DNA from: Blastocystis sp. Blastoise
Taxonomy: Eukaryota > Protista > Bigyra: Opalinata
DNA: 64,000 bases
Assembly (NCBI GenBank): GCA_039096225.1
Contig: JBBPEB010000002.1
Span: 744,001 to 808,000 of the forward strand
Reading direction: 5' to 3'
In this document: positions 806 to 60,353 of the stretch, one piece after another
How positions within the stretch are numbered: the stretch's first letter is position 1
Layout of the letters: each line of letters starts with the position of its first letter
Notes under the pieces: model-generated
Told to the model about the DNA's origin: nothing
Database searches by the model: none
What the model saw: the letters and a program-made list of their open reading frames with translations, nothing else
Position numbers and translations under genes: made by a program

Positions 806-1992
806 GAATCTCTTAAATGAGTAGAAATAGTATGACTATCAGGAAGAGATTTTAACCAGAATTTATATGACCAATCTAAGATAATATTATTTAATATAGA
901 AGCATAATAAGATACATTCTTCTTAGAAATATCTAATATCTTTCTAAGATTAGTTAAAGTATCTTTAGGAATAACTCCAGAAGAACCAAAGATTAAAGAA
1001 TAATTACTCACTCTATAACCATTATTATTCAATATTTCTATTACATTATCATAATCATGATCTTTCTTCTGTTTCATTGTTTGAAGAGGATCTATTTGAT
1101 TAGAAGATCCTTCATATGCTATACCTACATCTGCTATTATTATATCTTTGTTATTTGGATTTGTAGGAATAATTACTATATCAGGACGAAGATTATTCAT
1201 ATTTCTATTAAATATATCATTACCAAAGGAAGTTGATAATGATTTATCTATACTTATTCTATATTCTCCTAATTTATATTTTCTTATTAATTTCTTATAT
1301 AAGTTATTTAATATTTGATTATGTCTATTTGTAATTAAAACACCTATTCCATTATTATCTGTAATTCTATCACATGTAGTAAGAATATGATTCAAATTAT
1401 GAATAGCTCTCTTATTATGTTCTAAACAATAAGGACAAAGAGCTTCAGTATCATTAATCTTAGGAGATCTCTTCTTATTATATAAGAAAGATTGAGAACC
1501 AGTAAATGCTGTTCTCATTCTTATATTGATTAAAGCAGAATATTTCATAGGATGACATCTCTTACCATTAAATAACCATCTATTACTTTCTATATTATTA
1601 TCTAAATATTTATAATAATAAGTATTCTCATAATTATTTAATAATTGTTTTGAATGTTTCTTCTTCAACAAATTATTAATTTCTTTACATATCATTCTTC
1701 TTACTTTCTCATAAGGAATAGTAGTATTTAATTCAGGAATATCTTTATCTATTAATTTTATTTTAATACCTAAAGATATATCATTAGGATCTATATAAGC
1801 TATATTAACACCAAGTTTATAAGCAGCATCTACAGCTTTACGAAGATAAGGAAAGAAATTTGTTAATGATTCATAAGGAGTATCATGTATTATTATATTA
1901 CCATTTTCTATTCTTCCTTTTACTATTTTATGATTATCATTAATTAACCATTGAAAGAATAATAAATCATTCTTATGATTTTCAGGAATATT
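736..1992 (-). pseudogene. C-terminal CCHC zinc knuckle plus restriction-like endonuclease of the retrotransposon
   Basis: CPYC..HNLNHILTTC, RHNQI, LRPDIVII..IIIADVGIAY..K..Y. The frame of ORF 736..1695 stays open upstream to ~1992 (NIPENHKNDLLFFQW...), where one base is missing from an AAT run relative to the RT frame. Confidence 0.88.
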
Positions 1993-4382: not shown

Positions 4383-4435
4383 TCTTCTTTCATTTCTATT
4401 TGTATTTAATGTTTCTAGTATTTCTATTATTCATA

Positions 4436-8929
<4,494 letters not shown>

Positions 8930-8961
8930 AGAATCTAAAAAAATAAACAAAAATAAAATTA

Positions 8962-9034
8962 CGCCTTGACCCGGGATCGAACCAGGGACCTTATGATCTT
9001 CAGTCATACGCTCTCCCGACTGAGCTATCGAGGC
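8962..9034 (-). tRNA. tRNA-Phe (GAA)
   Basis: GCCTCGATAGCTCAGTCGGGAGAGCGTATGA-CTGAAGA-TCATAAGGTCCCTGGTTCGATCCCGGGTCAAGGCG. Cloverleaf with A/B boxes, followed by oligo-T Pol III terminator runs. Confidence 0.95.
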
Positions 9035-30673: not shown

Positions 30674-30711
<38 letters not shown>

Positions 30712-31038
30712 CATAATATCATATAATTAATATAATATAATTTAATATAATATAATATAATGTATAGATTTTATACATAACGATATTTATATATATTTAT
30801 AACTATGTTCTATTAAATATGTATATATATATATTAATGTATATCATTGAATATTATATATAATATAATATATATTATATAATTATATATAACATATATA
30901 TATAGGTATATACGAGAGCCGTCACAATTTACAGAGTTGCAATTATTTCTAGAATTTGTAGAAATATTTCTACCTGTATTAAAGTCAACTAATATTTTAC
31001 ATTCTTCACACCAAAATATATTTATACTAAATGGCATA
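28139..31038 (-). CDS. CMC DDE transposase of the 16025-41582 element, 3' portion
   Basis: VTSDGIS, YGDTA..FTG..YPCRFC, IDPMH, IHYFSH, TWESERFYSSIKR; collinear with 13051..14550; exon MPFSINIFWCEEC at ~30910-31037. Confidence 0.85.
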
Positions 31039-32701
31039 CACTGGTAGGCATTTTCACGGATATCAAAAAAGCGACAAATGAGAAAAAGTAAACAAAAAAT
31101 TTTAAGACACTTTTCAGTCATAGCGAATAGAGTGGCCAAAAAATAGACTAATTTTGTCGGGTATGTTGTTTGTTTTTATTCGTTCAGAATTCTTTTAGAA
31201 ACGTCATTTTTTATTTATTTATCGTTGTGTGAATGATAATAAAAATATATATAACAAAAGACAATAGATAATAATAAAAAAATAATAACAATAATAAAGA
31301 TAATAAAATAATAATTATTTATAATATTTTTGAGTAATTTGATATCATTTTGGATCACTATATATACATAAATGATAGAAATGATAATAATATAGATAAC
31401 ATATAAATATATACCTTTATGTATCACTTGTAGAATACCCCTTGAAGAAAAACCACAACTATAAAAATATAATTTATAAAAATAAATATATTATAATAAT
31501 ATACCTTCAACCACCAAACAGACTAGACCAAGAGAAACCTCATGAAGGACCTAGAACCTATATAAAAATAAAAGTAGTTAATTTTAAAAAAATAAAATAT
31601 AATAAAATACCTTCAAAACCAGGGAGTTGTTAACCAAGGAGACCGACAACAACACCTGAACCTATAGAAGATGATAATAATAATAACAAAGAGAATGCTA
31701 AAAATATATACCTTTAATAGTACAAGATTTCTAGTTACATAGACCCCACAACTCATTGTTTAACTATAGAGGATAAAGAAGAATGAAAAGAAACATACCT
31801 TTAAAGAAGAAGACCAATTAGGACCTATTTGAATCTATTTGGATAGACCATGAAGACTATAAAGTTTAAGGCAAATAAAAAATATTATATACATCTTATA
31901 ATATATAAAAAATATCTGAAAAATAAATAAAAATAAAAATAAATATGTGAAAATATTAAATCTTAAAAATAAAGAGAAATTCCCCCTTATAAAATCTTTT
32001 TTTCTATAATAAAAGTTTGTGTAAATTCGTTGTTTCCAGGGGTTAAAACATTTTAAAAATTTCCCTTTTTCTCTTTTATAAAGTCTATTTGAATTTTTAA
32101 TTGATATATAAATGTTATATGTGTACATTAAGCTTAATTATTTAATTATAACAGATTTCCGGACTTAATTAAACAAGAAAATTGTTATTTTAATAAACTA
32201 TAATTACAATTAAATATATTTGTTAGCTATTTTTATATAATACTATTCTATTTATAATAAGAATGCAATAGAGAATCAAAAAATATATTTAGTATAGCTA
32301 TTTATGAAGATACAATTTACAATTGGCAACTTTTGTTTTATAATATGTTTTAGTTCAACGAATCATATATTATTATTAGTGAATAAATAAACTGAGAATG
32401 TCTGAGAGGTTTGTAAGTGGTTTTAGACATTATAAAGAATATCATAAAATATAAATAGAAACTGTATTTATGTTAAACTCCTTTTTATGTTATTCCAAAA
32501 GAATTCTTTTAAAATATTTTTATTCTCAAATACTACAAAACAAAATGTATATAAAAAATAAATATAACACAATAAAAAATAGATAAAATAGATATTAGAT
32601 AATATATATAAATATAAGTAACATATCATTATAATACATATAATATGTATATGTAAGGAACTTCTTTCTATCCTATATATATATATGACTATAAAACTAT
32701 G

Positions 32702-32742
<41 letters not shown>

Positions 32743-34074
32743 ATAAAGAGTAGATTAGTTGCGGCTGTGGGTATACCTGTTCTTTAAGGAGTATGAGAGA
32801 GTAATATATAGGGAGAAAGGAAAGGAGGATACTAGAATATAACGAGAAGAGTTAAGGAATAGAAAGGAAGGGAGAGACACTATGAAGGGATAGAATAAGA
32901 TAGATAATATAATGCCAATTAATAAGTATAATAATAATAATAGCTATAATAACTATAATATATATACAAGATAAATAACCATGCTTCTGATAATCATGGT
33001 TATCAAGGAGAGACATAAAACGCTGGTATTATAGGAGGTATATAGTAAGTATATATATATTGATGTATTTGTGGTTTATAAATATATAATGTCATATCTA
33101 TCATATGTATAGCATTTTAATATCTATATATACATTAATTATAAATATAAAATAGTTAATACTATGTATAATATTTTATATCAAAAGTTTTATAGTGTAT
33201 AATTAAATATACAATTGAGAAATACTGGAGAAGTAATATTCCCCGCGATTAAGGATTCATAAAGACAGCACCCACAATAATACTGGAAGATGAAGAAGGA
33301 GAAATATGGAGAACTGTACATAACCACGGGGATAATAAGTATATCTAAAAAAAATAGAAACTAAATATTATATATATATATACATATTCTATAAATTATT
33401 TAATAAGAAGATCTTGTTTAGTAAGTAGCTGACAGAGGGATTCAAACATCCATAAAATACATAGATTCTATATAATAATAATAGTAATATATAATAATAT
33501 ATAGATTCTATATAAAATAATAATAATAAATATAATAATAATAATAATAAATATCTATATATATATAGCATACATAAGGGAAATACATGACTATAGAGCT
33601 ATATATTCCTTTATATTTATAAATTATTCCTAATGCTTGTTATGTATATTTATGTTTATGTATATATATTAAGGAATGAATAAGAAGAAAGAATAAGAGG
33701 AACACGAGGTAATAAATAAGGATGAGAAGGAGTTAAGAAGGTATCTATATATAATAATAATAATAATAATATATACATATATATACAATTTAAATCTTTA
33801 TTTTTTAACTGGACAAATACATATCAATTTATATATATATATATAATTCTGCACAATAACTACATTCAGATGCTAATATATCAATTTATATATATATATA
33901 TAATTCTGCACAATAACTACATTCAGATGCTAATATAATTATTTATATTTGTGATATAGGGTTTCATAAACTATATATTTATAAATATAAATAATAATTA
34001 TAATTATAATAAATATAATAATAATAGATATAATAATAATAATAAATATAATAATAGATATAATAATAAATATA

Positions 34075-34113
<39 letters not shown>

Positions 34114-37100
34114 TAATAATACTAATAAATATAATAATAATAAATATAATAAATATAAATATAATAATAATAAATATAATAAACATAACAATATATACCT
34201 TTTTTATTAGGTTCAAAATTAAATCCAAAATCTCTACTGGCAACTCTCATTCTCCCTCCAGATCGAGGAGGGGGAAGTGGGGGTAATGCTGATGATGATA
34301 TATTCAATTTATTATTATTATTATTATTAATATTATTATTATTATTCTTTCCTAAAGTAATAATATTATTATGATGAGAAATAGCTATTCTATCTTTATT
34401 TGTAGGAGTTAATAATATATTATTAGCACAATGATTATTATGTATATCATAAGTATAATCAATACAAGTATTAAGATCTGAAGATTGTAACGTTGATTTG
34501 ATTTGATTGGCTATTGTTGAAGATAAATGTGCGGATAACGGACTGTTAACATTCTGAGGAATAGTATTTTTATCATTATTATCATTAGTATTATTATTAG
34601 TATAATTATTATCATTTTCAAATAATTCACCATTACTAATACTATTGATTCTCTTTAGAGGAATAGGAGAAGTACTTTTCGATAAGGTGATATTTCTATA
34701 TCATTATCTGCTTCTTTATATATAGTATCCATATTAATTGGACGTATTTCAGAGAATGAAGATGAATTTCCTTGTGTAGTAGTAGTATATATTTCATTGC
34801 GATCACCATCAAATACTATTTCATTAGTATTATTCACTTCATAAGGAGAAACAGATGTAGATGAAGGCATAGGAGTAATAGAAGCTTTTGGAAATGGTAT
34901 TTCTGAATCATATTCTAAAGGATCTAAAGAATTTCTATTCGAACCAGAAAGATGATGAGAGAAAGAATGTATATTATTATTAGTAGTAGTATCAACTTAT
35001 AATTCATTACTATTGATTAATATATTATATGATATAGGAGGAGGAGTAGCCTATTTGATATAGAACTATTTACAATAGGTGACGAAACACAATCATTATT
35101 TTCATGATAGCTACTATTTGAGTCTTGTTTCATCAGGTGGTGTTGACTATTATATTGTAAATTCAAGAGAGAAAGAGGAATAGAAGAAGGTGGAGTTGTT
35201 GATCAAGATGGAGGTATATATGTAGATGTACCTATATGAGTTGAAGGAGTAGATACATGTATTGATGAAGGATATGAATGACCTAATAATTTATTAGCTG
35301 TTATGTTATTATTATTATTATTTATTGAAGATATAAAAGGCATATTATTATTATTATTATTATTATTATGATTATTAGTATTAATACTATTCATACTAAT
35401 TTTCTTTTCTAAGAAAAAAATATGTATTACTTCAGGTTTATAGAAAGGAGTTAATATATAGAAAGCATCAAGTAATGCAGAGGTAAATAATTGCTGTATT
35501 ATATAAGAATTTGAAAAAGATGGAGTTAATAAAGAAAAATAAATTTCTATTATCATTTGTATAGATGCAGAATCTATATAATATTAATAATTATTAGATA
35601 TTATAAATATTTAAAAAAATGAAATTATATATATATATACCTTTATGACATATATTGGCTAATATATATATATCTCTTTGCCACCTCTGTAACATTCTAA
35701 TATATACCTCATCCGATATATGGTCATCCACCAAATTATCTAAAGCCTTCTCTATATATATATTATATAAACATATGTATATATATTATATACTATAAAT
35801 ATATATACTTCTTTTAATATCTAAAGATAATGTTGTTCAATAACCAGTCAATTTATCTTGATCATCTCTATATATAATATTATATACAAATATACATAAT
35901 CATATATATATACAATTTAGTTAAAGCAGCAAGATAAAGTAATAGAATATCTTTAAATAAAAAATATTATCATCTTTTTCATATCTTAAACATTTATGTA
36001 TATAATCACATATTTCTGTATCCATATAATTAGTAATATGTATAATATCATATATAAAGTTGATAATAGAACGATATTGCTTTGTTATTGTAGTATCTGC
36101 AGAATTATCACGATATATATATATATATATCATATAAATGTGTTCCTTGTACTAACATATATATTATGGAAACATCCTATATATTATTATTATTATTTAT
36201 AATATAATAATCTTTATTAAATAATAATAAGAATTAATAAAATAATAATAATAATATGTATATACATTAATGAGTATATCTGGATAGTTCTTATATAATA
36301 ATATATAGATCATAAATGGGTTTTGAGAGGTAGATAATATCTTATAGAGATTCGGAGTAGATGTAACTACTGTATGATAATATTCAAAATATAACCTATA
36401 TATATATAGTACAATATATATTCTATTTAGTATAGTATATAAATATTATAATATAATATTCTGTTATATAATAATAATAGGATAAATATTAATAATATAT
36501 ATATATATATATATACTTAATAGCTTGAAAGTTGATTTTATGAAACATCCAAAAGCATAGGATAATGATTAATAAATATAATTATATAAGAACCATTTTC
36601 TTTATCTTTCATAAATGTAAAGAAAAAACAATACATTATTTTCTATATAAATAATAATCATATAGTATATATTAGTATATATAAATATAATAATAATATA
36701 TATATATATATATACAAATAATGGTATAGTTGTAGAATCTCTTTATTCTCACAGCATAAGTTAATATATAAGGATAATACTGTATCATAATCTTCAATAG
36801 ATATATATTGAGTAATAAAATGAGAAAATAATATATTATTTATATATATATATCTAATGATAAATATAATACAGTAGAAGCACAAAATAATGTACGTGTC
36901 TATATATATATATAATTAATATTAATCTAATTATTATTTAAAAAATAAAGAAAAATAATATAAGAATAATAAGAATAATAATATATAAATATACAAGTAA
37001 TTGAACAGATTTAACAATGAAGAAACTAGATAGTTTCCCTATATTCGGATTTTTATAAATATCAATAATATAATGCTTTCCAGGGATGGGAGGATTTGGT

Positions 37101-38944
37101 TTCTCATAAGGTAATAATGGATTAAATAAACATAAGCAATAAACATTAGGTATATAGGCAAAGAGGAAAGGAAATAAAGTAAATAATCGAGAAGATAAAG
37201 AGAATAGAGAGGCAAAGAGACTGGGTCTATAGAAGAAGTATTATTAGAATAATATGTATATTAATATATATAACAATAATAAGTATAAAAATGATAAAAA
37301 TAAATATAATAAAAGAAGAATAGTAATAAATATATATATGTTGATCTTCAGTAGCTGTAAAACAATCAAAATATATATATATACAAATATAGTAATATTG
37401 ATAGAATGATTCAATCTATATATAATAATAATAATAATAATAATAAATAGACATACCATTTTTATTTGAAAGAATAGTACCATCAATCGGATTTGTAAAT
37501 GGGAAAGAAAAATTCATATTCTATATATAATATAATAAGATTAGCATAAAATATTATAATATTAAAATAAATAAAAATTAAATAAATATTTAATATAGGA
37601 AAATGAAAAAAGGGAAAAATGTTAATGCAAACGAAAAAAAATATATATGATATTTATATACTGTTGATAACATGTTTGGTTGTGGTTTGACAGTGTTTTG
37701 AGTTAGCAGAACCAAAAAGAACCTAAAAAAATAAAAAAAAAGAAATGGAAAAAAATACCTTACCAAATAGATAGATAACAACAATTCTTTTTGACAAACA
37801 CTTCTAATAATGACTAAGGAGACTGTTTGAATGCAGACGGGAAGCCAGAATCAAGAACCTAAAAGAATCAGATAAAAAAATAGGAAATATTCAATAAATA
37901 AATTATGATATAATATATACCTGCATGGAAAACACCTAAGATATGCATAGCAGTCACTAGATCTGCTTGTATACAACAAATTAAAAATAAAGATAAATTC
38001 ATATTTAAAGTCAATTTTTTAGTCAAATACTAAAAATTTTCATAAAAATTCATTTTTAATTTTTTTTAAAATTTTTATGACTCAATACTAAAGTAACAAG
38101 TTTTAACAATTATATATTACACTATTGACACAACATTATTGTATCCCACTACTTTCAGGTTTTAAAAAAATACTCATTTTTGTTGACTCTCTGATCTATT
38201 TATATTCTGTTCTAAAAGCTATTGATTATAACTTGAAACGTTTTTATAATACATAATTAACTCTCAAAACAACTCTTTAAAAGACTTTTCTTTGATTCTG
38301 AGGAAAAGTAGTTTTTTTATAAGTTTTGACATACTCTTTGTATGCGGAACTTTAAGTCATGATAGAATAAAATGAAAAAAGTCTTTTAAAACTCTTATGT
38401 CGTCTGATATATAATAAAATATAAATAGACTCACTTTTAAACAATAAAAATATTCCCGTAAATATTTTAAAAATTCAAAACTCTGGTCTGATTGCCCATG
38501 GAACAAATAGGCTCGGTTCAATTTTTCAATGTAAAAAAAATATAAATTTTTGACTTTTTGACTGAATTTTGGTTTTGTCCCATAGAGGTCAGCTTATTCA
38601 CTTTTAATCATATATGTGACTATGAGAGGGTCTTCACTTTAAACACAACTATAAAATACTTTAAAATATTGACCCCATTATTTGTCGGAATTGCGACTTT
38701 AAAATAAATAAAAACGTTTTGGATATTGGGTGACCCTCTGCAAATAAAAATTAATGTCAATTCTTTATTAAAATATGTCTAATAGGGTATTTGAGTCTAA
38801 ATCAAAAGTCGACTTAAAAATTTTGTGAAAATTTTCATTTTTTTGCCTAAGTCTTTTTTTTCTTGAGTTTTCATTGGCTGAATCAATTTTGAACGAAAAT
38901 CAACCAATCAAAAACCTTCAAAAACTCAAAAGTGCCTACCAGTG
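31039..38944 (+). mobile_element. Nested non-autonomous CACTG element (7.9 kb) carrying degenerate gene fragments
   Basis: 12-bp perfect TIR CACTGGTAGGCA/TGCCTACCAGTG; TSD ATA at 31036-31038 and 38945-38947; interrupts a transposase exon. Confidence 0.92.
32740..37960 (-). pseudogene. Mosaic of degenerate captured exons, products unidentified
   Basis: Many GT..AG-bounded coding-like segments with stops; one exon shared with 20717-20890; 57-bp tandem duplication near 33822-33937. Confidence 0.5.
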
Positions 38945-44710: not shown

Positions 44711-45139
44711 TAAGATCAAAAATAAAACACAAGAGCTAATCAATTATTATTAATAAACAATAAATATATATAATCAATAATAAAAATAGCTAAAATGATA
44801 CTAAATAAAAAAGGAAATAATACTCAAAAAAATGTAATATAAAATGTTAAATAGGAATTATCAATAAAGTATGAATTGAATTATTTAGAATATACTAAAC
44901 TAATAACTAAACAATAGAAGATAACAACTAAAACAATTGAAATAATAATTTATAAAATATGAAATAGTCTTCATCCTAAAAATAAAAAAAATAGAAATGA
45001 ATAACAAAAACATAAAAATAAACATAATATTAAAAAAAAACATAAAATATAACAATTAAGAGATGACAACTATCAAAACTCAAGCGTAGGTGGCGTAGCC
45101 AGTCGTGAAACGCTTGTATATATAAATATATTAATATAC

Positions 45140-46020
45140 CATTTTATATCGCTATTCTTTAAATAATATGAACCATCACCTAATTTGTTTGGACCTAATT
45201 CGCAAAGTTTTTTTGCTGTATAGGTTTTTCCCAAACCAGTTTCGCCCCATATATATATAACTACTGGAGATTCTACTCTTTTCTTTTCATTAAAATCATA
45301 GATTAATCTCTTAATTGCTTGTGAATGTAAGAGTGTAAATCCCGGAAATTCGTGCCATATAGCATCGTAAGTATTACCATTCCTTATTGCTGTAGCTACT
45401 TCTTCGGAAATTTTTTTCGGATGTTTTTTATTTTTATAATATTTAACATCTGTTTTAATAAATCTAATAGGACCAGGTGATAACGGAGAAGGTTCACTAC
45501 TTATGTTTCTTGATTCTAAGTTATACAGTCTTCCATTGAAAGTTTGACTTGCAAATAAATCACGATGAGTACCACTTGTTATAGCTCCATAGCCTCTAGT
45601 ATTTTGGTTACGATATATTTCATGTAAATTATTTATCTATATATATATATATATATACATATATATATGTATATACCTCTGATAAATAATATAGTACGTT
45701 TTCACGAGTTCCATCACGAGGTCTAACATCTGTATGTTCCAACTGAAGCATTCTTCGGACCTTATTTCTTCTTCTTCTTGTTGTTAATTCAATGTATAAA
45801 TGTGTATGCGTATTATGTGTTTCGTTATTAGGTTCAGTTACATACGCCACATACATAATTTCCTGTGGTAAACCATTTTCCTCCCAATTAGGTAGAGTCT
45901 CTTGAAAAAAGAAATCTCGGTCATCACCGAATAGTGTACAAAACCAATATTGACTTTGTGGTGACTATATACATATATACATAATAATTATATAAATACA
46001 ACATTATTATTATCACTCAT
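45140..46020 (-). pseudogene. rep: Divergent Rep paralog, truncated before Walker B
   Basis: Exons 46020-46000, 45964-45677 and 45636-45140 give YWFCTLF, THTHLYIE, VLYYLSE, WGETGLGKT...DIKW. The last exon is absent. Confidence 0.88.
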
Positions 46021-46337
46021 ATTTATAAAATATCAAATAAATATTAAAATAAATTATAAAATAAATTATAAAATAAAATAAATATAAGCCACGTCAGCAT
46101 AATTAAAAATACAGAATATGCCCTTATATCTTGTCAGGACCTAATCACCAGTCAATAAAAATTAAATTGTACCCATTCCCAAAACTCTTTTTTTGCTATT
46201 TTTAGGGTCTAATTCCTTCTGGATAAAAAGTTATTTCAATTTAAAGGTTTGGGACCCTAATTATAAATATTAAGAATTACACTACAACCAAACTCAACTT
46301 ATCCAATCCGATCGGAGAAACTCAAGATTCCTCCAAT

Positions 46338-46374
46338 CAAATTGAGCGATGACGCATTATTACATCACAATTTG
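46338..46374 (+). promoter_or_regulatory. Putative rolling-circle origin, copy 1 (nonamer CATTATTAC at 46355-46363)
   Basis: CAAATTG-AGC-GATG [ACGCATTATTA] CATC-A-CAATTTG imperfect stem; fits the NANTATTAC consensus. Confidence 0.75.
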
Positions 46375-46871
46375 CTCTCAGCGAAACACGAAACAAAGAT
46401 CATCATAAGAGTATTTGACTCGAAAGTCAGAAGTAAATCTTACAATTAGTTGATCTTGATTTTTTATATCTATATTGTCTTTGTTTTCTATTCTTTCGAA
46501 CCACCTTTCTAATATATTACTACTTGAGAAATTCAACTCAATGCACATGTTCATGTGTATTCACGGGAAAGTTTTTTTACATTCGCGGCTTTTACCCGTA
46601 TATACCGTTCTTTATATTTAGCCGCCCCGTGAATATCTTTGTGAGTGAGAGCTGAGAGCAAATGCTCAGTTTTGTGGTTGTATAGTACTCTCGGATCCTT
46701 ATCTTGTTTTATTGTAGAAGTTCACAAAGAGTATGGTCGCGCAGTCGAGTTTGGTGTTCGATTTTTTTTTTTTTTTTTTTATGTTTTTTTTTAAAAAGAA
46801 TTAACAAAACAGTGTTTTTAATTATATATTATTATATTAGACAAGAATTAATGTTTGTAGTGTTAGTATAT

Positions 46872-47618
46872 TTAGTGTCGTAATCTATCTGGTAGATGTT
46901 GAGCATAGTATACCATAGGTGATGTTCCTGCTGTTTGTGCAGCGGCAACGTATCTTGTAGCTTCGTCGAACAATGCAGTGATAACGGTATTATATTGTGG
47001 TTCTGTTCTGAAAGTCATTTGTCCTCCTTCTGAAATATTATACATAATAGGAAATGTGTTGATTCCTCCCATTTGGTATATAAAAACTAGTATTGTTTCT
47101 GCTTTTGTAAAATCATCGGATGCATAGTAGATGGGTAGTGTGAAATCATAGGCGAGTTGTTCTGCAGTGAATGGATAGGTATAGAGTAAACCGTTTAGTC
47201 TATATATATATTCTTTTTTGACTCCGTTTTTGTTAATTGTGTAGACTGTGTTTATAATTTGTTTGATAGTAGAGTTGCAGAGTTTTTTAATGTTCTTTGC
47301 ATTTTCGTCGTCACCTGTAGCGCTTGGTATAAATATTTGAATTGGTATAGTATAATCTGTTGATGTTAATAGTGTTCTAGCTTGAGCTACGTACATTCTT
47401 CCACATTTTTTGGCTACAAGCATTAATTGGTGCCTAAGTTTGTGTTTATTTGCGATTCCACCTACGGTAGTATCTTCGGCGATAGTTGCCCAATTTGTTC
47501 TAAAAGAATTAACTGCATTGTTATAAGTGGTTACAGCGTTTGAATTTCTATTATATCTTCTTCTTCTATAATAGGTACGTTGAGTACCTCTATATCTGGA
47601 TGAGTATCTATAAGGCAT
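46872..47618 (-). CDS. 248-aa protein with Arg/Tyr-rich N-terminal arm (capsid or genome-binding structural protein)
   Basis: MPYRYSSRYRGTQRTYYRRRRYNRN N-terminus typical of CRESS capsids; intronless intact ORF. Confidence 0.65.
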   Translation of the reverse strand: MPYRYSSRYRGTQRTYYRRRRYNRNSNAVTTYNNAVNSFRTNWATIAEDTTVGGIANKHKLRHQLMLVAKKCGRMYVAQARTLLTSTDYTIPIQIFIPSATGDDENAKNIKKLCNSTIKQIINTVYTINKNGVKKEYIYRLNGLLYTYPFTAEQLAYDFTLPIYYASDDFTKAETILVFIYQMGGINTFPIMYNISEGGQMTFRTEPQYNTVITALFDEATRYVAAAQTAGTSPMVYYAQHLPDRLRH

Positions 47619-47672
47619 TTATTGTAAATAAAATAAATAAAATATGATATGATTTGATTAATAATTATTAAT

Positions 47673-47776
47673 GGAGTCAGTTTATCTGAATATATAAATT
47701 TGTTTTTAGAGACGGTTTATCTGAATATATAAATTCGTATTAGGAGACAGTTTATCTGTATATATAAATTCGTTTT
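47673..47776. promoter_or_regulatory. 35-bp x3 repeat with TATA motif between the divergent structural genes (also 52720-52823)
   Basis: GAG(T/A)C(A/G)GTTTATCTG(A/T)ATATATAAATT at 47673, 47708 and 47743. Confidence 0.6.
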
Positions 47777-47816
47777 CTTATAAATATGTTTTGTTATTTT
47801 GCATAAATTATTTTAA

Positions 47817-49055
47817 ATGTCTAGTTTAGGTACTATAATAAATGACAAGTTGTCAATGGCTAGTTCCTCTGCGGGAGCCCTTTATCTTAAGCGTTACGTT
47901 AATCCTTGTGATGATACTTCTATACCTGTTGACGGTGTACCTGATGGCCAAACCCACATGATTTATACTTTAAATAATAAGTTTAATATATCTATAGATC
48001 AAGATACATTTGTAGATCCTAGAGCTGTTGTCCCAGATTTATATAATAATTTTACTATAATTGCAACACCATGGTCTACTTATCCTATTTTGATTTATGG
48101 TACATTTACTTGGTATAATACTGTGGATAAAACATCATCATCTCAAACATGTATTATGGGTGTTAAAGATCCTAATTGGCAGCAAAATCAAGAAGATTTT
48201 AATTTAGGTCGTGGATTATTTCGTGGTTGTACATTAAAATGGGCTGGTAATACTAATAATATGCAAGGTCTTATATATGGTATTCAAGTACCGTATTGTG
48301 TAGATACTATGTATACTACTAGTGGTAGTGTAGAATCTCAAGATTTATCTTATAAAGCTTTTAATAGTTATATGAATCCTTATATTCCTTTAGATTCTAA
48401 TGCTATTACTTCTTATTCTCCAAAATATAAAGTATTTAATGTCCCTGATGGTTGTTATATGCCTCAACATTTATCTTATGGTTATAAGAATTATTATAGG
48501 CCACCTATATTTCAAAAGAAACAACTTGATACAGGAGATAGTTATGAATATTTTATTAATGGATTATTAGGAAGTGCTAGTGCTCAAATGAATATATTTG
48601 ATTATGATACTTGGATGTCTAAAAGAATATTTACTAAGGTTATGTTACCTATAGAAGTAACTGAATATGTTCCTTCTTTCTTACATACTGGATTTAATTT
48701 TGGTATTATTAGAGTTGAAGGTTCAAATTTTAACAATCCATTTACTTTAAAAATATGTAATGGTTATGAGTTAGTTCCTTCTTATAATAGTGAGTATTTC
48801 CCATTATTAAAGAATCCTCCTTTATTAGATGAACAAGCTCTTTATGCTTGTGCTATTTTAACTCAATCATTAGATTTTTGTTATCCTTCTTCTTATAATG
48901 ATTTTCAAACTATGTGGAATGGTGTAGTTGATTTCTGGAATAAATTTAAAAGGTCTTGGAATAGTGAAACTGTTCAAAATATAGCTACAGCTGCTAGTGC
49001 TATACCTGGTGTTTCTCCATGGGTTCAAGGAATAAATACTTTAACTAAATTTTAA
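47817..49055 (+). CDS. 412-aa capsid protein, alphanodavirus/tetravirus-like (peptidase A6/A21-type autocleaving coat)
   Basis: GALYLKRYVNP..GVPDG; GCYMP; LK..GYELVP..PPLLDEQAL..YPSSYN|DFQTMW..AASAIPG C-terminus. Confidence 0.75.
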   Translation: MSSLGTIINDKLSMASSSAGALYLKRYVNPCDDTSIPVDGVPDGQTHMIYTLNNKFNISIDQDTFVDPRAVVPDLYNNFTIIATPWSTYPILIYGTFTWYNTVDKTSSSQTCIMGVKDPNWQQNQEDFNLGRGLFRGCTLKWAGNTNNMQGLIYGIQVPYCVDTMYTTSGSVESQDLSYKAFNSYMNPYIPLDSNAITSYSPKYKVFNVPDGCYMPQHLSYGYKNYYRPPIFQKKQLDTGDSYEYFINGLLGSASAQMNIFDYDTWMSKRIFTKVMLPIEVTEYVPSFLHTGFNFGIIRVEGSNFNNPFTLKICNGYELVPSYNSEYFPLLKNPPLLDEQALYACAILTQSLDFCYPSSYNDFQTMWNGVVDFWNKFKRSWNSETVQNIATAASAIPGVSPWVQGINTLTKF

Positions 49056-49152
49056 TTTATGTGTATATATATTTTTATTTGTCTTAAATTAATTTTGTTT
49101 TGTTCAATTTTTATTATTACTACTCACACTCACTGCACTTCAACACAAATAT

Positions 49153-49227
49153 TATTTCACAATTTCACAATTTCACAAAATCACAATTTCACATTTTCAC
49201 AGATACACAATTTCACAATTGCACAAT
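49153..49227. repeat. 8-bp ATTTCACA tandem repeat between the convergent cap and rep 3' ends (also 54200-54274)
   Basis: About 9 imperfect units. Confidence 0.8.
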
Positions 49228-49340
49228 GTGTTGAGTTGCATATGAATTATATAACAAAACAAATAAGTTTTTAAAACAAAGATATAACTGAGAAAAGATA
49301 TGAAATCAGAAAAACTCAATAGATAATAAATATATAGAAT

Positions 49341-51066
49341 TTAGAATTCTTGTTTAATGTTTTGAGAGTCTGGGAGTATACAATAATCATCTTCGCTACT
49401 ATCCCATGAAAGACTTATAGGTTTATTATGATCAGAATATTCTTCATCGTCTTCTTCATTATCAGTGAAAGTGAGATCAATGAGTTCATTACTATATTCG
49501 TTATCTGAAGATGATAAATCTAGAATAGGTATAGGAGTATTAGGTCTTTTGTGACAGAAATTTGTTTTTTTAGGAGTAGTTATTTCAATAGTAGGAAGAG
49601 ATATACGAGGAGTTGTTGGAGGTGAGCTAAGGGTAAGTTCATTATCTAGTTCTATTTGTATGGGTATATTGACTGTTGGTTTGTATTGATTATTAATTTT
49701 CATCATAATATCAGCGGCTTGTATATATTTGGTTTCATCATCTTTATATAGTAGATTACGTCTGATACCTTTGATGTAATCATCTTTAGCTTTGCTATAT
49801 TTGAAATCAATAGTATTATCTTCAAGTAATTCATATTCATTGTAGAATCTTCTGAGTAGTTGTTCTAATTCATCATTTGAAAGTTCTTTGAAATTTTCTT
49901 TTAAGCTTCTATCAGACGTAAATATAATTAGAGGTGAGGTGATTTTTACTGTTGAACCTTTTGTTTCCACTCCTACATCATAATAATCTAAAATACGAAG
50001 AAGGTCTTTATCATTATAGATTTTTCTAAAATCATCAATAATGATGCCAAACTGACCTTTGTATCCATCCCACCTATAAATATAGAATATAATATAATAT
50101 ATACCATTTAATATCTCCATTCTTCATGTAGTAAGATCCTTTACCATCTTCATTTTCGCCTAGTTCACATATTTTTTTAGCTGTATAAGTTTTACCTACT
50201 CCAGTTTTCCCATATAAATATAAAACTATAGGTGCAGTATTTCTTTTTTTGGTATTAAAGTCATAGATTGCTTTTTTTATGTTATTTGAATGTAATAGGG
50301 CAAAGGAAGCATATTCTTCCCATATATCTTCATAAGTACAACCATTTTTTATCATTGAAGCAACTTCTTCAGATATTTTTTTTGGATCTATATATATAAT
50401 ATAAATTATAATGTATATACGTTTTTTGTTTTTAGAATATTTGACTTTATTATGAGTAAAATTCATAGGAGCTGTAGATATTGGGTCTATTCTAGCAAAG
50501 CTATTATTATTATTCATATTATAAAGAACACCATTATAAGTAGAAGCATTTATTAAATCGCGATGCATTCCATTTTGAAAGTTTGCTCCATATCCAAGTG
50601 TATTGCTTGTATTGTAATATTCATCTATTTCATTTATCTAATATTTATAATTAAATAATTAAATTAATATATATAAATATATACTTCACTTAAATAAATT
50701 AAAGTTGCCTCTCGTGACCACTCCCTTGGTCTTACATCAGTATGCTCTAAGGATAGTAATCTTATTATCTGATTTCTTCTTAACCTTTTTTTCATTTCCA
50801 TATATAAATGTACATGAGTGTTGTTTGTAGTCGGAGATACTTCTCTTGATAAAGCAACATAGTTCTATATATATATATATATAATATATTTATATACTAT
50901 TTCAAATGGAAGACCATTACTATTCCAACTGGGTTGGATTACTTCATTAAAATGTAAAAGGTCTTCACCAAATAAAGTAAGAGTCCAATATTGAGACTGA
51001 CGGTTCTATATAACAATAACTTAAATATATTTATTAATATACAGGGTTAGTATTATTATTTTGCAT
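49341..51066 (-). CDS. rep: Replication-associated protein Rep (HUH endonuclease plus SF3 helicase), 6 exons, 514 aa
   Basis: Exons 51066-51043, 51005-50898, 50864-50685, 50637-50421, 50387-50105 and 50073-49341 splice in frame. Motifs WTLTLF, HVHLY, YLSE, GKTGVGKT, WWDGY, IIIDDF, VETKG, IIFTSD, LLRRF. Confidence 0.92.
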
Positions 51067-51384
51067 TTTTTTTTTTTTTACTAAAAATTATAAAATAAAT
51101 TATAAAATAAATTATAAAATAAAATAAATATAAGCCACGTCAGCATAATTAAAAATACAGAATATGCCCTTATATCTTGTCAGGACCTAATCACCAGTCA
51201 ATAAAAATTAAATTGTACCCATTCCCAAAACTCTTTTTTTGCTATTTTTAGGGTCTAATTCCTTCTGGATAAAAAGTTATTTCAATTTAAAGGTTTGGGA
51301 CCCTAATTATAAATATTAAGAATTACACTTACAACCAAACACAACTTATCCAATCCGATCGGAGAAACTCAAGATTCCTCCAAT

Positions 51385-51421
51385 CAAATTGAGCGATGAC
51401 GCATTATTACATCACAATTTG
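51385..51421 (+). promoter_or_regulatory. Putative origin, copy 2 (nonamer 51402-51410)
   Basis: Identical to copy 1. Confidence 0.75.
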
Positions 51422-51918
51422 CTCTCAGCGAAACACGAAACAAAGATCATCATAAGAGTATTTGACTCGAAAGTCAGAAGTAAATCTTACAATTAGTTGA
51501 TCTTGATTTTTTATATCTATATTGTCTTTGTTTTCTATTCTTTCGAACCACCTTTCTAATATATTACTACTTGAGAAATTCAACTCAATGCACATGTTCA
51601 TGTGTATTCACGGGAAAGTTTTTTTACATTCGCGGCTTTTACCCGTATATACCGTTCTTTATATTTAGCCGCCCCGTGAATATCTTTGTGAGTGAGAGCT
51701 GAGAGCAAATGCTCAGTTTTGTGGTTGTATAGTACTCTCGGATCCTTATCTTGTTTTATTGTAGAAGTTCACAAAGAGTATGGTCGCGCAGTCGAGTTTG
51801 GTGTTCGATTTTTTTTTTTTTTTTTTTATGTTTTTTTTTAAAAAGAATTAACAAAACAGTGTTTTTAATTATATATTATTATATTAGACAAGAATTAATG
51901 TTTGTAGTGTTAGTATAT

Positions 51919-52665
51919 TTAGTGTCGTAATCTATCTGGTAGATGTTGAGCATAGTATACCATAGGTGATGTTCCTGCTGTTTGTGCAGCGGCAACGTAT
52001 CTTGTAGCTTCGTCGAACAATGCAGTGATAACGGTATTATATTGTGGTTCTGTTCTGAAAGTCATTTGTCCTCCTTCTGAAATATTATACATAATAGGAA
52101 ATGTGTTGATTCCTCCCATTTGGTATATAAAAACTAGTATTGTTTCTGCTTTTGTAAAATCATCGGATGCATAGTAGATGGGTAGTGTGAAATCATAGGC
52201 GAGTTGTTCTGCAGTGAATGGATAGGTATAGAGTAAACCGTTTAGTCTATATATATATTCTTTTTTGACTCCGTTTTTGTTAATTGTGTAGACTGTGTTT
52301 ATAATTTGTTTGATAGTAGAGTTGCAGAGTTTTTTAATGTTCTTTGCATTTTCGTCGTCACCTGTAGCGCTTGGTATAAATATTTGAATTGGTATAGTAT
52401 AATCTGTTGATGTTAATAGTGTTCTAGCTTGAGCTACGTACATTCTTCCACATTTTTTGGCTACAAGCATTAATTGGTGCCTAAGTTTGTGTTTATTTGC
52501 GATTCCACCTACGGTAGTATCTTCGGCGATAGTTGCCCAATTTGTTCTAAAAGAATTAACTGCATTGTTATAAGTGGTTACAGCGTTTGAATTTCTATTA
52601 TATCTTCTTCTTCTATAATAGGTACGTTGAGTACCTCTATATCTGGATGAGTATCTATAAGGCAT
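51919..52665 (-). CDS. 248-aa Arg-rich-arm protein, copy 2
   Basis: Identical translation to 46872..47618. Confidence 0.65.
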   Translation of the reverse strand: MPYRYSSRYRGTQRTYYRRRRYNRNSNAVTTYNNAVNSFRTNWATIAEDTTVGGIANKHKLRHQLMLVAKKCGRMYVAQARTLLTSTDYTIPIQIFIPSATGDDENAKNIKKLCNSTIKQIINTVYTINKNGVKKEYIYRLNGLLYTYPFTAEQLAYDFTLPIYYASDDFTKAETILVFIYQMGGINTFPIMYNISEGGQMTFRTEPQYNTVITALFDEATRYVAAAQTAGTSPMVYYAQHLPDRLRH

Positions 52666-52863
52666 TTATTGTAAATAAAATAAATAAAATATGATATGAT
52701 TTGATTAATAATTATTAATGGAGTCAGTTTATCTGAATATATAAATTTGTTTTTAGAGACGGTTTATCTGAATATATAAATTCGTATTAGGAGACAGTTT
52801 ATCTGTATATATAAATTCGTTTTCTTATAAATATGTTTTGTTATTTTGCATAAATTATTTTAA

Positions 52864-54102
52864 ATGTCTAGTTTAGGTACTATAATAAATGACAAGTTGT
52901 CAATGGCTAGTTCCTCTGCGGGAGCCCTTTATCTTAAGCGTTACGTTAATCCTTGTGATGATACTTCTATACCTGTTGACGGTGTACCTGATGGCCAAAC
53001 CCACATGATTTATACTTTAAATAATAAGTTTAATATATCTATAGATCAAGATACATTTGTAGATCCTAGAGCTGTTGTCCCAGATTTATATAATAATTTT
53101 ACTATAATTGCAACACCATGGTCTACTTATCCTATTTTGATTTATGGTACATTTACTTGGTATAATACTGTGGATAAAACATCATCATCTCAAACATGTA
53201 TTATGGGTGTTAAAGATCCTAATTGGCAGCAAAATCAAGAAGATTTTAATTTAGGTCGTGGATTATTTCGTGGTTGTACATTAAAATGGGCTGGTAATAC
53301 TAATAATATGCAAGGTCTTATATATGGTATTCAAGTACCGTATTGTGTAGATACTATGTATACTACTAGTGGTAGTGTAGAATCTCAAGATTTATCTTAT
53401 AAAGCTTTTAATAGTTATATGAATCCTTATATTCCTTTAGATTCTAATGCTATTACTTCTTATTCTCCAAAATATAAAGTATTTAATGTCCCTGATGGTT
53501 GTTATATGCCTCAACATTTATCTTATGGTTATAAGAATTATTATAGGCCACCTATATTTCAAAAGAAACAACTTGATACAGGAGATAGTTATGAATATTT
53601 TATTAATGGATTATTAGGAAGTGCTAGTGCTCAAATGAATATATTTGATTATGATACTTGGATGTCTAAAAGAATATTTACTAAGGTTATGTTACCTATA
53701 GAAGTAACTGAATATGTTCCTTCTTTCTTACATACTGGATTTAATTTTGGTATTATTAGAGTTGAAGGTTCAAATTTTAACAATCCATTTACTTTAAAAA
53801 TATGTAATGGTTATGAGTTAGTTCCTTCTTATAATAGTGAGTATTTCCCATTATTAAAGAATCCTCCTTTATTAGATGAACAAGCTCTTTATGCTTGTGC
53901 TATTTTAACTCAATCATTAGATTTTTGTTATCCTTCTTCTTATAATGATTTTCAAACTATGTGGAATGGTGTAGTTGATTTCTGGAATAAATTTAAAAGG
54001 TCTTGGAATAGTGAAACTGTTCAAAATATAGCTACAGCTGCTAGTGCTATACCTGGTGTTTCTCCATGGGTTCAAGGAATAAATACTTTAACTAAATTTT
54101 AA
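52864..54102 (+). CDS. 412-aa noda/tetravirus-like capsid, copy 2
   Basis: Identical translation to 47817..49055. Confidence 0.75.
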   Translation: MSSLGTIINDKLSMASSSAGALYLKRYVNPCDDTSIPVDGVPDGQTHMIYTLNNKFNISIDQDTFVDPRAVVPDLYNNFTIIATPWSTYPILIYGTFTWYNTVDKTSSSQTCIMGVKDPNWQQNQEDFNLGRGLFRGCTLKWAGNTNNMQGLIYGIQVPYCVDTMYTTSGSVESQDLSYKAFNSYMNPYIPLDSNAITSYSPKYKVFNVPDGCYMPQHLSYGYKNYYRPPIFQKKQLDTGDSYEYFINGLLGSASAQMNIFDYDTWMSKRIFTKVMLPIEVTEYVPSFLHTGFNFGIIRVEGSNFNNPFTLKICNGYELVPSYNSEYFPLLKNPPLLDEQALYACAILTQSLDFCYPSSYNDFQTMWNGVVDFWNKFKRSWNSETVQNIATAASAIPGVSPWVQGINTLTKF

Positions 54103-54387
54103 TTTATGTGTATATATATTTTTATTTGTCTTAAATTAATTTTGTTTTGTTCAATTTTTATTATTACTACTCACACTCACTGCACTTCAACACAAATATT
54201 ATTTCACAATTTCACAATTTCACAAAATCACAATTTCACATTTTCACAGATACACAATTTCACAATTGCACAATGTGTTGAGTTGCATATGAATTATATA
54301 ACAAAACAAATAAGTTTTTAAAACAAAGATATAACTGAGAAAAGATATGAAATCAGAAAAACTCAATAGATAATAAATATATAGAAT

Positions 54388-56113
54388 TTAGAATTCTTGT
54401 TTAATGTTTTGAGAGTCTGGGAGTATACAATAATCATCTTCGCTACTATCCCATGAAAGACTTATAGGTTTATTATGATCAGAATATTCTTCATCGTCTT
54501 CTTCATTATCAGTGAAAGTGAGATCAATGAGTTCATTACTATATTCGTTATCTGAAGATGATAAATCTAGAATAGGTATAGGAGTATTAGGTCTTTTGTG
54601 ACAGAAATTTGTTTTTTTAGGAGTAGTTATTTCAATAGTAGGAAGAGATATACGAGGAGTTGTTGGAGGTGAGCTAAGGGTAAGTTCATTATCTAGTTCT
54701 ATTTGTATGGGTATATTGACTGTTGGTTTGTATTGATTATTAATTTTCATCATAATATCAGCGGCTTGTATATATTTGGTTTCATCATCTTTATATAGTA
54801 GATTACGTCTGATACCTTTGATGTAATCATCTTTAGCTTTGCTATATTTGAAATCAATAGTATTATCTTCAAGTAATTCATATTCATTGTAGAATCTTCT
54901 GAGTAGTTGTTCTAATTCATCATTTGAAAGTTCTTTGAAATTTTCTTTTAAGCTTCTATCAGACGTAAATATAATTAGAGGTGAGGTGATTTTTACTGTT
55001 GAACCTTTTGTTTCCACTCCTACATCATAATAATCTAAAATACGAAGAAGGTCTTTATCATTATAGATTTTTCTAAAATCATCAATAATGATGCCAAACT
55101 GACCTTTGTATCCATCCCACCTATAAATATAGAATATAATATAATATATACCATTTAATATCTCCATTCTTCATGTAGTAAGATCCTTTACCATCTTCAT
55201 TTTCGCCTAGTTCACATATTTTTTTAGCTGTATAAGTTTTACCTACTCCAGTTTTCCCATATAAATATAAAACTATAGGTGCAGTATTTCTTTTTTTGGT
55301 ATTAAAGTCATAGATTGCTTTTTTTATGTTATTTGAATGTAATAGGGCAAAGGAAGCATATTCTTCCCATATATCTTCATAAGTACAACCATTTTTTATC
55401 ATTGAAGCAACTTCTTCAGATATTTTTTTTGGATCTATATATATAATATAAATTATAATGTATATACGTTTTTTGTTTTTAGAATATTTGACTTTATTAT
55501 GAGTAAAATTCATAGGAGCTGTAGATATTGGGTCTATTCTAGCAAAGCTATTATTATTATTCATATTATAAAGAACACCATTATAAGTAGAAGCATTTAT
55601 TAAATCGCGATGCATTCCATTTTGAAAGTTTGCTCCATATCCAAGTGTATTGCTTGTATTGTAATATTCATCTATTTCATTTATCTAATATTTATAATTA
55701 AATAATTAAATTAATATATATAAATATATACTTCACTTAAATAAATTAAAGTTGCCTCTCGTGACCACTCCCTTGGTCTTACATCAGTATGCTCTAAGGA
55801 TAGTAATCTTATTATCTGATTTCTTCTTAACCTTTTTTTCATTTCCATATATAAATGTACATGAGTGTTGTTTGTAGTCGGAGATACTTCTCTTGATAAA
55901 GCAACATAGTTCTATATATATATATATATAATATATTTATATACTATTTCAAATGGAAGACCATTACTATTCCAACTGGGTTGGATTACTTCATTAAAAT
56001 GTAAAAGGTCTTCACCAAATAAAGTAAGAGTCCAATATTGAGACTGACGGTTCTATATAACAATAACTTAAATATATTTATTAATATACAGGGTTAGTAT
56101 TATTATTTTGCAT
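54388..56113 (-). CDS. rep: Rep, copy 2 (6 exons)
   Basis: Same as 49341..51066 shifted by 5047. Confidence 0.92.
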
Positions 56114-56431
56114 TTTTTTTTTTTTTACTAAAAATTATAAAATAAATTATAAAATAAATTATAAAATAAAATAAATATAAGCCACGTCAGCATAATTAAA
56201 AATACAGAATATGCCCTTATATCTTGTCAGGACCTAATCACCAGTCAATAAAAATTAAATTGTACCCATTCCCAAAACTCTTTTTTTGCTATTTTTAGGG
56301 TCTAATTCCTTCTGGATAAAAAGTTATTTCAATTTAAAGGTTTGGGACCCTAATTATAAATATTAAGAATTACACTTACAACCAAACACAACTTATCCAA
56401 TCCGATCGGAGAAACTCAAGATTCCTCCAAT

Positions 56432-56468
56432 CAAATTGAGCGATGACGCATTATTACATCACAATTTG
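56432..56468 (+). promoter_or_regulatory. Putative origin, copy 3 (nonamer 56449-56457)
   Basis: Identical to copy 1. Confidence 0.75.
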
Positions 56469-56775
56469 CTCTCAGCGAAACACGAAACAAAGATCATCAT
56501 AAGAGTATTTGACTCGAAAGTCAGAAGTAAATCTTACAATTAGTTGATCTTGATTTTTTATATCTATATTGTCTTTGTTTTCTATTCTTTCGAACCACCT
56601 TTCTAATATATTACTACTTGAGAAATTCAACTCAATGCACATGTTCATGTGTATTCACGGGAAAGTTTTTTTACATTCGCGGCTTTTACCCGTATATACC
56701 GTTCTTTATATTTAGCCGCCCCGTGAATATCTTTGTGAGTGAGAGCTGAGAGCAAATTGTGATGTAATAATATAT

Positions 56776-57314
56776 CACTGTTATTCTGGTTTCATCATTT
56801 TAAATCATATGATTGGCTTATTTCAGTTCAAAATTTGTTCAGCCACTAAAAATAGAGTAGTTTCATGGACTTAGGCAAAAATCGTGGATTTTGACAAAAT
56901 TTTGACACTTTTTTCAGTCGACTTTTGATTTAGACTTTAAAACCCTATTAGACAAATTTTAATAAAGAATTGGCATTATTGTTTATTTACAGAGGGTCAC
57001 ATAATACCCAAAACGTTTTTCTTTATTTTAAAGTGTTAATTTTGTGAATTCATGGTGTCCAAATTTTTTAAATTTTATAGTAGTGTTTGAAGTTTAGACC
57101 CTCTTATAGTCATAAATGTAATTAAAAGTGAATAAGCTGGTCTCTATGACTCAGAACCAAAATTCAGTCAAAAAATCAAAAATTTATTTCTTTTTACACT
57201 GAAAAATTGAGCCGAGCCTATTTGTATCATGGACAGTCAGACCAGAGTTTTCCATTTGAGATAATTGACTCAGGACGCTTTAAATTGTAAAACTTGACTC
57301 AGGATAGTCTATTT
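56776..57314 (+). mobile_element. End of another CACTG (CMC) element; the partner end is not in the window
   Basis: Begins CACTG; the next ~500 bp are similar to 16060-16550. Confidence 0.75.

Positions 57315-60353
<3,039 letters not shown>

What the first reader, a model, noticed from the sequence alone, without database searches (positions are those of the whole stretch)
56432..56780. Right junction ends in an inverted origin half-site at the predicted nick: signature of Rep-mediated integration
Seen: each unit has a 13-bp inverted repeat (ATTTGCTCTCAGC 46370-46382 / GCTGAGAGCAAAT 46651-46663). In the last copy the sequence leaves the unit exactly at this repeat (56757) and continues as the reverse complement of the origin's 3' arm, to 56771. 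The minus strand then reads TATTATT^ACATCACAATTTG..., making a 27-bp inverted repeat with 56450-56476. Inference: a Rep-linked 5' end (AC...) was joined to a nonamer-like host site, with a template switch at the 13-bp repeat. This also supports the origin assignment independently.
Basis: partly seen in the sequence, partly recalled or inferred. Interest (0 to 1): 0.72.

Follow-up and report, generated by a model that had tools for sequence, protein, structure and literature searches.

The report
Fold-back scar at integrated virus end
A small circular DNA virus sits in tandem copies in a gut protist's genome, and its right end carries a short inverted copy of its predicted replication origin, most likely a fold-back DNA-repair scar, though direct joining by the virus's own nicking enzyme remains possible.

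Summary
Observation confirmed. A CRESS-DNA virus (5,047-bp unit; spliced HUH/SF3 Rep, nodavirus-like capsid) lies as about 2.1 tandem copies in a Blastocystis genome. The last copy leaves the unit at a 13-bp inverted repeat (56757) and continues as 14 templated bases, giving a perfect 27-bp inverted repeat (0 of 100 shuffles). A template switch at the repeat is therefore well supported. 'Ends at the nick' is not shown: the match runs 6 nt past the predicted nick, through ATTATT, one of the host's commonest words, so microhomology-guided snap-back repair predicts the same end (34-67% of stop-point weight). In favour of Rep: the junction restores the whole AxTAxTAC octamer inside a new 5-bp hairpin (4 of 954 comparable host sites). 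No reads, empty site or relatives could be obtained; no flip isomer in 3 of 3 copies. Best reading: snap-back synthesis plus microhomology end joining (0.55); Rep strand transfer 0.25. One event, undecided; not yet a signature.

The parts
45076..46020 (-). RepA: 5' part of a divergent Rep gene (57% aa identity to RepB), no helicase C-terminal exon; left edge of viral DNA not defined
   Evidence: P0003 maps to 46020-46000, 45964-45677, 45636-45076; identity; 62% nt to RepB
46035..51082 (.). Viral unit copy 1 (5,047 bp): intergenic region, ORF248 (-), capsid (+), RepB (-)
   Evidence: self-BLAST 99.9% to copy 2; differences listed
46872..47618 (-). ORF248, Arg-rich N-terminus, no family
47817..49055 (+). 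Capsid-like protein, 412 aa, resembling noda/tetra-type RNA-virus capsids
   Evidence: Atlas features PF01829 clusters 0.95; PDB 7xpg E 3.6e-6
49341..51066 (-). RepB, 514 aa spliced model: HUH motifs plus SF3 helicase, five short introns
   Evidence: P0002 exon map; PF00910 E 1.2e-13; solved Reps E 4.9e-18
51083..56129 (.). Viral unit copy 2
56130..56757 (.). Partial copy 3 (intergenic region only)
56432..56468 (+). Predicted origin hairpin: CAAATTG / GATG stem, loop with CATTATT^AC (56449-56457, nick predicted 56455/56456); weak stem
   Evidence: z -1.47; fits AxTAxTAC of PCV (PMC2690592)
56464..56476 (+). Break-distal arm of the 13-bp inverted repeat (primer site)
56745..56757 (+). Break-proximal arm of the 13-bp inverted repeat; last base that follows the unit
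56758..56771 (-). Templated inverted copy of 56450-56463: 8 nt on the 3' side of the nick (56758-56765) plus 6 nt ATTATT on the 5' side (56766-56771) that may be viral copy, host, or shared
56772..56775 (+). ATAT: host flank or filler; with 56759-56763 and the CAC that follows it forms a 5-bp hairpin around the nick-like site
56776..57325 (+). Terminus (CACTG...) of a host repeat family, 73-76% identical to ends at 16025 and 38944; CACTA/CACTG-type transposon end (type name recalled)

Best explanation
The right end of the integrated CRESS-virus array carries a 14-base inverted copy of the predicted origin that most likely arose by snap-back repair synthesis followed by microhomology end joining to the host, without Rep making the joint. 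Steps: (1, shown by sequence) the plus strand stops following the unit at the second 13-bp repeat; (2, inferred, strongly) that single-stranded 3' end folded back 268 nt onto the first repeat beside the origin and was extended along the origin's 3' arm; (3, inferred) synthesis ran into the AT-rich loop, where the new end AATAAT first finds a common host word, and annealed to a host break; (4, inferred, weakest) the host break lay at or next to a CACTG transposon end, possibly made by transposase.
For: 27/27 inverted repeat = primer + templated bases is the product defined for snap-back SD-MMEJ (PMC5728401, passages). The 13-bp stem forms in MFE and centroid. The match does not stop at the nick but 6 nt past it; a blunt stop at the nick joined to random host DNA would give that in 0.91% of positions, 0.49% with microsatellites masked. 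Weighting the first 40 possible stop points by host word frequency puts 34-67% of the weight (3-6 nt microhomology) on the six stops inside the nonamer, against 15% if uniform. ATAT is the second commonest 4-mer after AATAAT in the host part of the window (71 of 954), so the 10 nt look like ordinary host DNA. The joint is 4 nt from a transposon-like end; six supported ends in 52.3 kb make that about 0.1% by chance (my arithmetic), which a Rep model does not predict. The left side of the array does not start at a nick. One step suffices, whereas Rep joining needs a prior template switch, a nick and a strand transfer.
Against: Published SD-MMEJ primers lie within about 30 nt of the break and 9-nt repeats may be disfavoured; here the loop is 268 nt and the primer 13 nt. 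The inverted match ends exactly at the 5' edge of the AxTAxTAC octamer, and the junction rebuilds a 5-bp hairpin with a 10-nt loop, which only 4 of 954 host ATTATT sites and 305 of 34,848 sampled positions would do (noticed after the fact). Presence of polymerase theta or an equivalent pathway in this host was not tested. No reads or empty allele (one search listed none).
Confidence: 0.55

Rival explanations
1. Rep-catalysed joining: a strand made chimeric by a template switch at the 13-bp repeat carried Rep on its 5' A(+1); Rep transferred it to a host 3' end reading ...GTGATATATTATT, whose GTGAT pairs with viral ATCAC and so mimics the origin hairpin.
For: Whole octamer AxTAxTAC restored and match ends at its 5' edge; T(-4):A(+1) pair kept; circovirus Rep rejoins physically separate substrates in vitro and needs that pair (PMC9973303, passages); rebuilt 5-bp stem with 10-nt loop is rare, 4 of 954 and loop size is in the 10-13 nt range of viral origins (10.1101/2020.09.01.278671, passages); RepB has HUH motifs and a motif III tyrosine.
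Against: Needs three events; explains only one end; does not predict the transposon end 4 nt away; same letters expected from microhomology; motif III reads YLSE, without the lysine seen in 89 of 118 other Rep hits by a simple regex; origin stem is weak (19 of 200 shuffles fold as well).
Confidence: 0.25
2. Secondary junction: the primary integration ends are gone; this end was made later, when the locus was duplicated or inverted, or when a transposon inserted or deleted next to it.
For: A second locus with RepB, capsid, ORF248 and RepA in reverse locus order lies on the same 1.32-Mb contig, with 0, 1, 3 and 1 aa differences; it shares RepA's non-Rep tail peptide, so one locus may be a copy of the other. 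Fold-back at short inverted repeats is a known route to inverted duplications (PMC3907307, search listing only). Flank of the nearest candidate other end (60401) is TTT against TAT, unlike the matching 3-bp flanks of two other end pairs.
Against: DNA of the second locus could not be fetched; pairing of 56776 with 60401 is uncertain (10 of 13 terminal bases, one 45-bp subterminal inverted repeat); the 4 nt ATAT are not viral, so a clean transposase cut into a longer viral palindrome is excluded.
Confidence: 0.13
3. Assembly or read artefact (fold-back chimera or misjoin at a repeat).
For: Near-identical tandem units beside a repeated element are misjoin-prone; no reads were available.
Against: The inversion is only 14 nt, templated from 268 nt away, not a tip fold-back; it is base-perfect; it abuts the exact terminus of a distinct (73-76% identical) member of a host repeat family on a 1.32-Mb contig. 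CRESS elements in other Blastocystis genomes were confirmed by PCR (PMC9615429, section 8).
Confidence: 0.07

Closest known systems
Endogenous cressdnavirus elements of gut protists (Blastocystis CRESSV1 and cluster-1 EVEs; whole-genome and tandem EVEs in Entamoeba and Giardia; PMC9615429, PMC7493932)
   Same: [quoted passage not shown]
   Different: No close relative found: next-best Rep hits are 23-43% identical over part of the length. 5-kb unit, five-intron Rep, noda-like capsid, extra ORF. The word 'junction' does not occur in PMC7493932's main text.
Snap-back synthesis-dependent microhomology-mediated end joining (SD-MMEJ; PMC5728401, PMC2943611)
   Same: Junction = inverted primer repeat + templated bases + possible microhomology, forming a longer inverted repeat.
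   Different: Primer repeat is 13 nt and 268 nt apart, beyond the roughly 30 nt tested in Drosophila; substrate is a naturally single-stranded virus; enzyme untested.
Porcine circovirus 'melting-pot' template switching at the origin (PMC2690592; PMC3187698)
   Same: Copy-choice at an origin-linked inverted repeat; same octamer consensus; origins are recombination hot spots.
   Different: There the switch is within the hairpin stem and repairs the palindrome; here it uses a second repeat 268 nt away and ends in host DNA.
AAV Rep-dependent integration at AAVS1 (PMC3187698 passage; mechanism recalled)
   Same: HUH Rep acting on an origin-like host site would be the precedent for the rival model.
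   Different: Linear parvovirus with a recurrent target; here one event, no recurrent target shown.

Membership tests
Cressdnaviricota (CRESS DNA virus) endogenous element | Rep with HUH endonuclease motifs I-III | tested here: met
   WTLTLF, HVHLY, YLSE read in P0002 (motif names recalled); HUH part aligns weakly to solved Rep; motif III lysine absent
Cressdnaviricota (CRESS DNA virus) endogenous element | SF3 helicase domain | tested here: met
   PF00910 E 1.2e-13; solved Reps E 4.9e-18
Cressdnaviricota (CRESS DNA virus) endogenous element | Circular unit genome with capsid gene | tested here: met
   head-to-tail 5,047-bp repeat; capsid-like ORF
Cressdnaviricota (CRESS DNA virus) endogenous element | Nonamer in an intergenic stem-loop | tested here: inconclusive
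   CATTATTAC is the only one of 7 NNNTATTAC sites in the unit that is intergenic and in a stem loop, but the stem is 4+7 bp, z -1.47; no relatives for covariation
CRESSV1 / pecoviruses or another named family | Rep phylogeny within the clade | not tested
   hits were almost all unnamed; representative search never ran
Rep-mediated integration junction | Viral sequence ends exactly at the nick | tested here: inconclusive
   match runs 6 nt past the nick; end lies anywhere in 56765-56771
Rep-mediated integration junction | Host acceptor resembles the 5' half of the origin | tested here: inconclusive
   ATTATT and a 5-bp stem are present but their host origin cannot be shown without an empty allele
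Rep-mediated integration junction | Recurrent ends at the nick in independent insertions | not testable with these tools
Snap-back SD-MMEJ junction | Inverted repeat made of primer repeat plus templated bases at the junction | tested here: met
   13 + 14 nt, 27/27
Snap-back SD-MMEJ junction | [quoted passage not shown] | tested here: inconclusive
   AATAAT is host-like but no empty allele
Snap-back SD-MMEJ junction | Template within about 30 nt of the break | tested here: not met
   268 nt between arms against the limit suggested in PMC5728401
CACTA/CACTG-type transposon end (right flank) | CACTG terminus with paired end and 3-bp target duplication | tested here: inconclusive
   family members show ATA/ATA and TCG/TCG; this copy TAT/TTT with an uncertain partner end

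The most novel reading that the evidence does not exclude
This is a base-level record of Rep-catalysed integration of a eukaryotic CRESS virus: a Rep-capped strand end was transferred onto a host pseudo-origin whose 5' stem arm is supplied by a transposon terminus, so that transposon ends in (TA)n/(TTA)n context act as landing sites for a new lineage of intron-rich, noda-capsid CRESS viruses of Blastocystis.
Probability: 0.2. Interest if true: 0.72.

Novelty: new member of a known kind. Interest (0 to 1): 0.42.

Why it matters
[quoted passage not shown] A very young insertion with a base-perfect origin-linked end is a rare chance to test this: the two models predict different empty alleles and different ends at the second locus. 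If repair made it, the case warns that origin-like ends in AT-rich hosts arise without Rep. The virus itself has no close relative on record.

Tried and rejected
Whole genome: none held. Sequencing runs for 55900-58400: none was listed, so no reads were laid. Relatives: Rep exon, P0002 and capsid in viral contigs and P0002 in metagenome contigs gave none; origin 18-mer and 20-mer patterns gave 1 and 13 loci, none of the 14 extending beyond the pattern or encoding Rep, capsid or ORF248: chance. Representative-protein search stayed busy in 5 tries; the capsid fold job had not finished after 4 collections. Earlier findings: nothing in 4 look-ups. Flip isomers: none in 3 of 3 copies. Left end: the GC-rich hairpin 45080-45117 has no Rfam match and no source elsewhere in the window beyond a 12-nt AT-rich word; its peptide recurs in the second locus, so it is not a junction-specific insert; homology left of it to the viral 3' region was not above shuffles (57 vs mean 54). 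Junction as a degenerate origin of a variant virus: rejected, the plain inverted copy explains 27/27. Transposase cut into a longer viral palindrome: rejected, ATAT is not viral. Literature searches for 'Rep-mediated integration' with ssDNA/endogenous, for ssDNA integration with Phytophthora/nonanucleotide, and searches found no report of nick-site junctions of a eukaryotic CRESS element; the review cited for the Rep model (PMID 25675979) is not held, so absence from print is not established. No supplements were read.

Full report
What the region is. The window is AT-rich eukaryotic DNA (GC 12-32%). A 5,047-bp unit is repeated head to tail at 46035, 51083 and, partially, 56130-56757, at 99.9% identity. 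It encodes ORF248 (-), a 412-aa capsid-like protein (+) and a spliced Rep (-). A database protein, P0002 (514 aa, named by its source as a Blastocystis sp. protein), maps exon by exon onto both copies; it has PF00910 at E 1.2e-13 and matches solved Reps at E 4.9e-18. The capsid resembles noda/tetra-type capsids. Left of copy 1 lies the 5' part of a second Rep, RepA, 57% identical, attached to a nearly identical intergenic region. So this is an endogenous CRESS-DNA virus array; such elements are known in Blastocystis (PMC9615429, section 8 read) and as whole or tandem genomes in Entamoeba and Giardia (PMC7493932, passages). No close relative was found.

The observation. All coordinates check. 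The 13-bp inverted repeat is in 3 of 3 copies; copy 3 leaves the unit at 56757; 56745-56771 is a perfect inverted copy of 56450-56476, with 0 of 100 shuffles giving a match. The repeat pairs in the predicted fold of the plus strand (MFE and centroid, z -4.76). A 13-bp repeat as such is not rare in this composition (90 of 2000 simulations) but one with 5 or more G+C was not seen (0 of 2000); its core TGAGAGC occurs twice at the far arm and once inverted beside the origin, like an iteron (inference). The 268-bp segment has the same orientation in 3 of 3 copies.

The origin. Of 7 NNNTATTAC sites in the unit only CATTATTAC (46355; 56449 in copy 3) is intergenic and sits in a stem loop. It fits the circovirus octamer AxTAxTAC (PMC2690592, passages). 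The stem is weak: 4 bp plus 7 bp beyond an internal loop, 19 of 200 shuffles fold as well, against 9-11 bp in studied origins (10.1101/2020.09.01.278671, passages). The assignment is plausible, not proven.

Where the viral DNA ends. The templated piece has 8 nt on the 3' side of the predicted nick and 6 more (ATTATT) on the 5' side. A stop at the nick joined to a random host position would give those six bases in 0.91% of cases (0.49% with microsatellites masked). So either Rep chose a nonamer-like acceptor, or synthesis ran on into the loop. The second needs no Rep: weighting the first 40 stop points by how common their last 3-6 bases are in the host part of the window puts 34-67% of the weight on the six stops inside the nonamer (uniform 15%). 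A primer repeat plus templated bases forming a longer inverted repeat is the defined product of snap-back SD-MMEJ (PMC5728401, passages), although that paper suggests a reach of about 30 nt, far below 268.

(a) Four bases after the match a repeat family begins with CACTG (56776), 73-76% identical over 500 nt to ends at 16025 and 38944. Those two ends have candidate partners with matching 3-bp flanks (TCG, ATA); the candidate partner of 56776 at 60401 has TTT against TAT, and the pairing is uncertain. DUF4218 hits below cut-off lie at 12871-14550 and 28266-30770; its link to CACTA transposases is recalled. A joint this close to one of six supported ends is about 0.1% by my arithmetic and suggests capture at a transposon-linked break, or a later rearrangement. 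(b) Because that end reads CAGTG-AT on the minus strand, the junction rebuilds a hairpin GTGAT[ATATTATTAC]ATCAC; 4 of 954 host ATTATT sites would do so. This is the best point for Rep, which can rejoin separate substrates in vitro (PMC9973303, passages), but it was noticed after the fact and is the same coincidence as (a). (c) Cluster look-up shows a second locus on the same contig with RepB, capsid, ORF248 and RepA in reverse order, differing by 0, 1, 3 and 1 residues. Its DNA could not be read. It is the natural test, and it raises the possibility that one locus is a copy of the other.

Mechanism. Shown: exit at the repeat and 14 inverted bases. Strongly inferred: fold-back priming at the 13-bp repeat. 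Inferred: joining by microhomology in the AT-rich loop to a host end beside a transposon terminus (0.55). Rivals: Rep strand transfer to a pseudo-origin (0.25), secondary rearrangement (0.13), artefact (0.07; no runs were listed). Against Rep also: the array's left side does not start at a nick, and motif III is YLSE in both Reps, whereas 89 of 118 other hits carry a Y-x-x-K word by a crude regex; the lysine contacts the scissile phosphate in a circovirus Rep.

Verdict. A real, base-perfect templated inversion at the end of a young CRESS insertion. It is compatible with Rep-mediated integration but is not a signature of it and gives no independent proof of the origin. New member of a known kind; interest moderate because the open question becomes testable with the second locus and an empty allele. 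Other papers seen: PMC3187698, PMC6293997 and PMC13689230 as passages (the last attributes an anellovirus junction tentatively to microhomology joining with template switching); PMC2943611 and PMC3907307 as search listings only.

Noticed in passing
window 45076-46020 and 49341-51066: Two Reps at 57% aa identity share a nearly identical intergenic region and origin; RepB has five short host-type introns, RepA lacks two of them (intron presence/absence between viral variants).
   Followed up: partly
window 45677-45690 and 50685-50698 (-): Motif III reads YLSE in both Reps, directly before an intron, instead of the usual YxxK.
   Followed up: partly
window 47817-49055: Capsid resembles noda/tetra-type RNA-virus capsids (Atlas 0.95; PDB 7xpg E 3.6e-6) and lacks a basic N-terminus, while the divergently transcribed ORF248 has an Arg-rich N-terminus and no known family.
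   Followed up: partly
window 47674-47776: Three direct repeats of about 35 nt, each with a TATA-like word, between the divergent starts of ORF248 and the capsid.
   Followed up: no
window 16025-41582 and 31039-38944: Two nested pairs of CACTG...CAGTG ends with matching 3-bp flanks (TCG, ATA); the outer pair spans 25.5 kb holding a DUF4218 gene and host-like genes: possibly a large cargo-carrying transposon, or chance pairing.
   Followed up: partly
window 57922-59857: Intron-split ORFs right of the junction with words recalling a DDE (piggyBac/IS4-like) transposase; recalled resemblance, no Pfam hit.
   Followed up: partly
window 45080-45117: GC-rich hairpin at the truncated end of RepA; the peptide it encodes recurs at the end of the second locus's RepA model (P0123).
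   Followed up: partly
window 1944-9007: Retroelement on the minus strand with RVT_1 (E 1e-33) and a long low-complexity upstream ORF.
   Followed up: no
outside the window, same contig (P0122, P0123, P0125): Second near-identical viral locus in reverse gene order, known only from protein records.
   Followed up: partly
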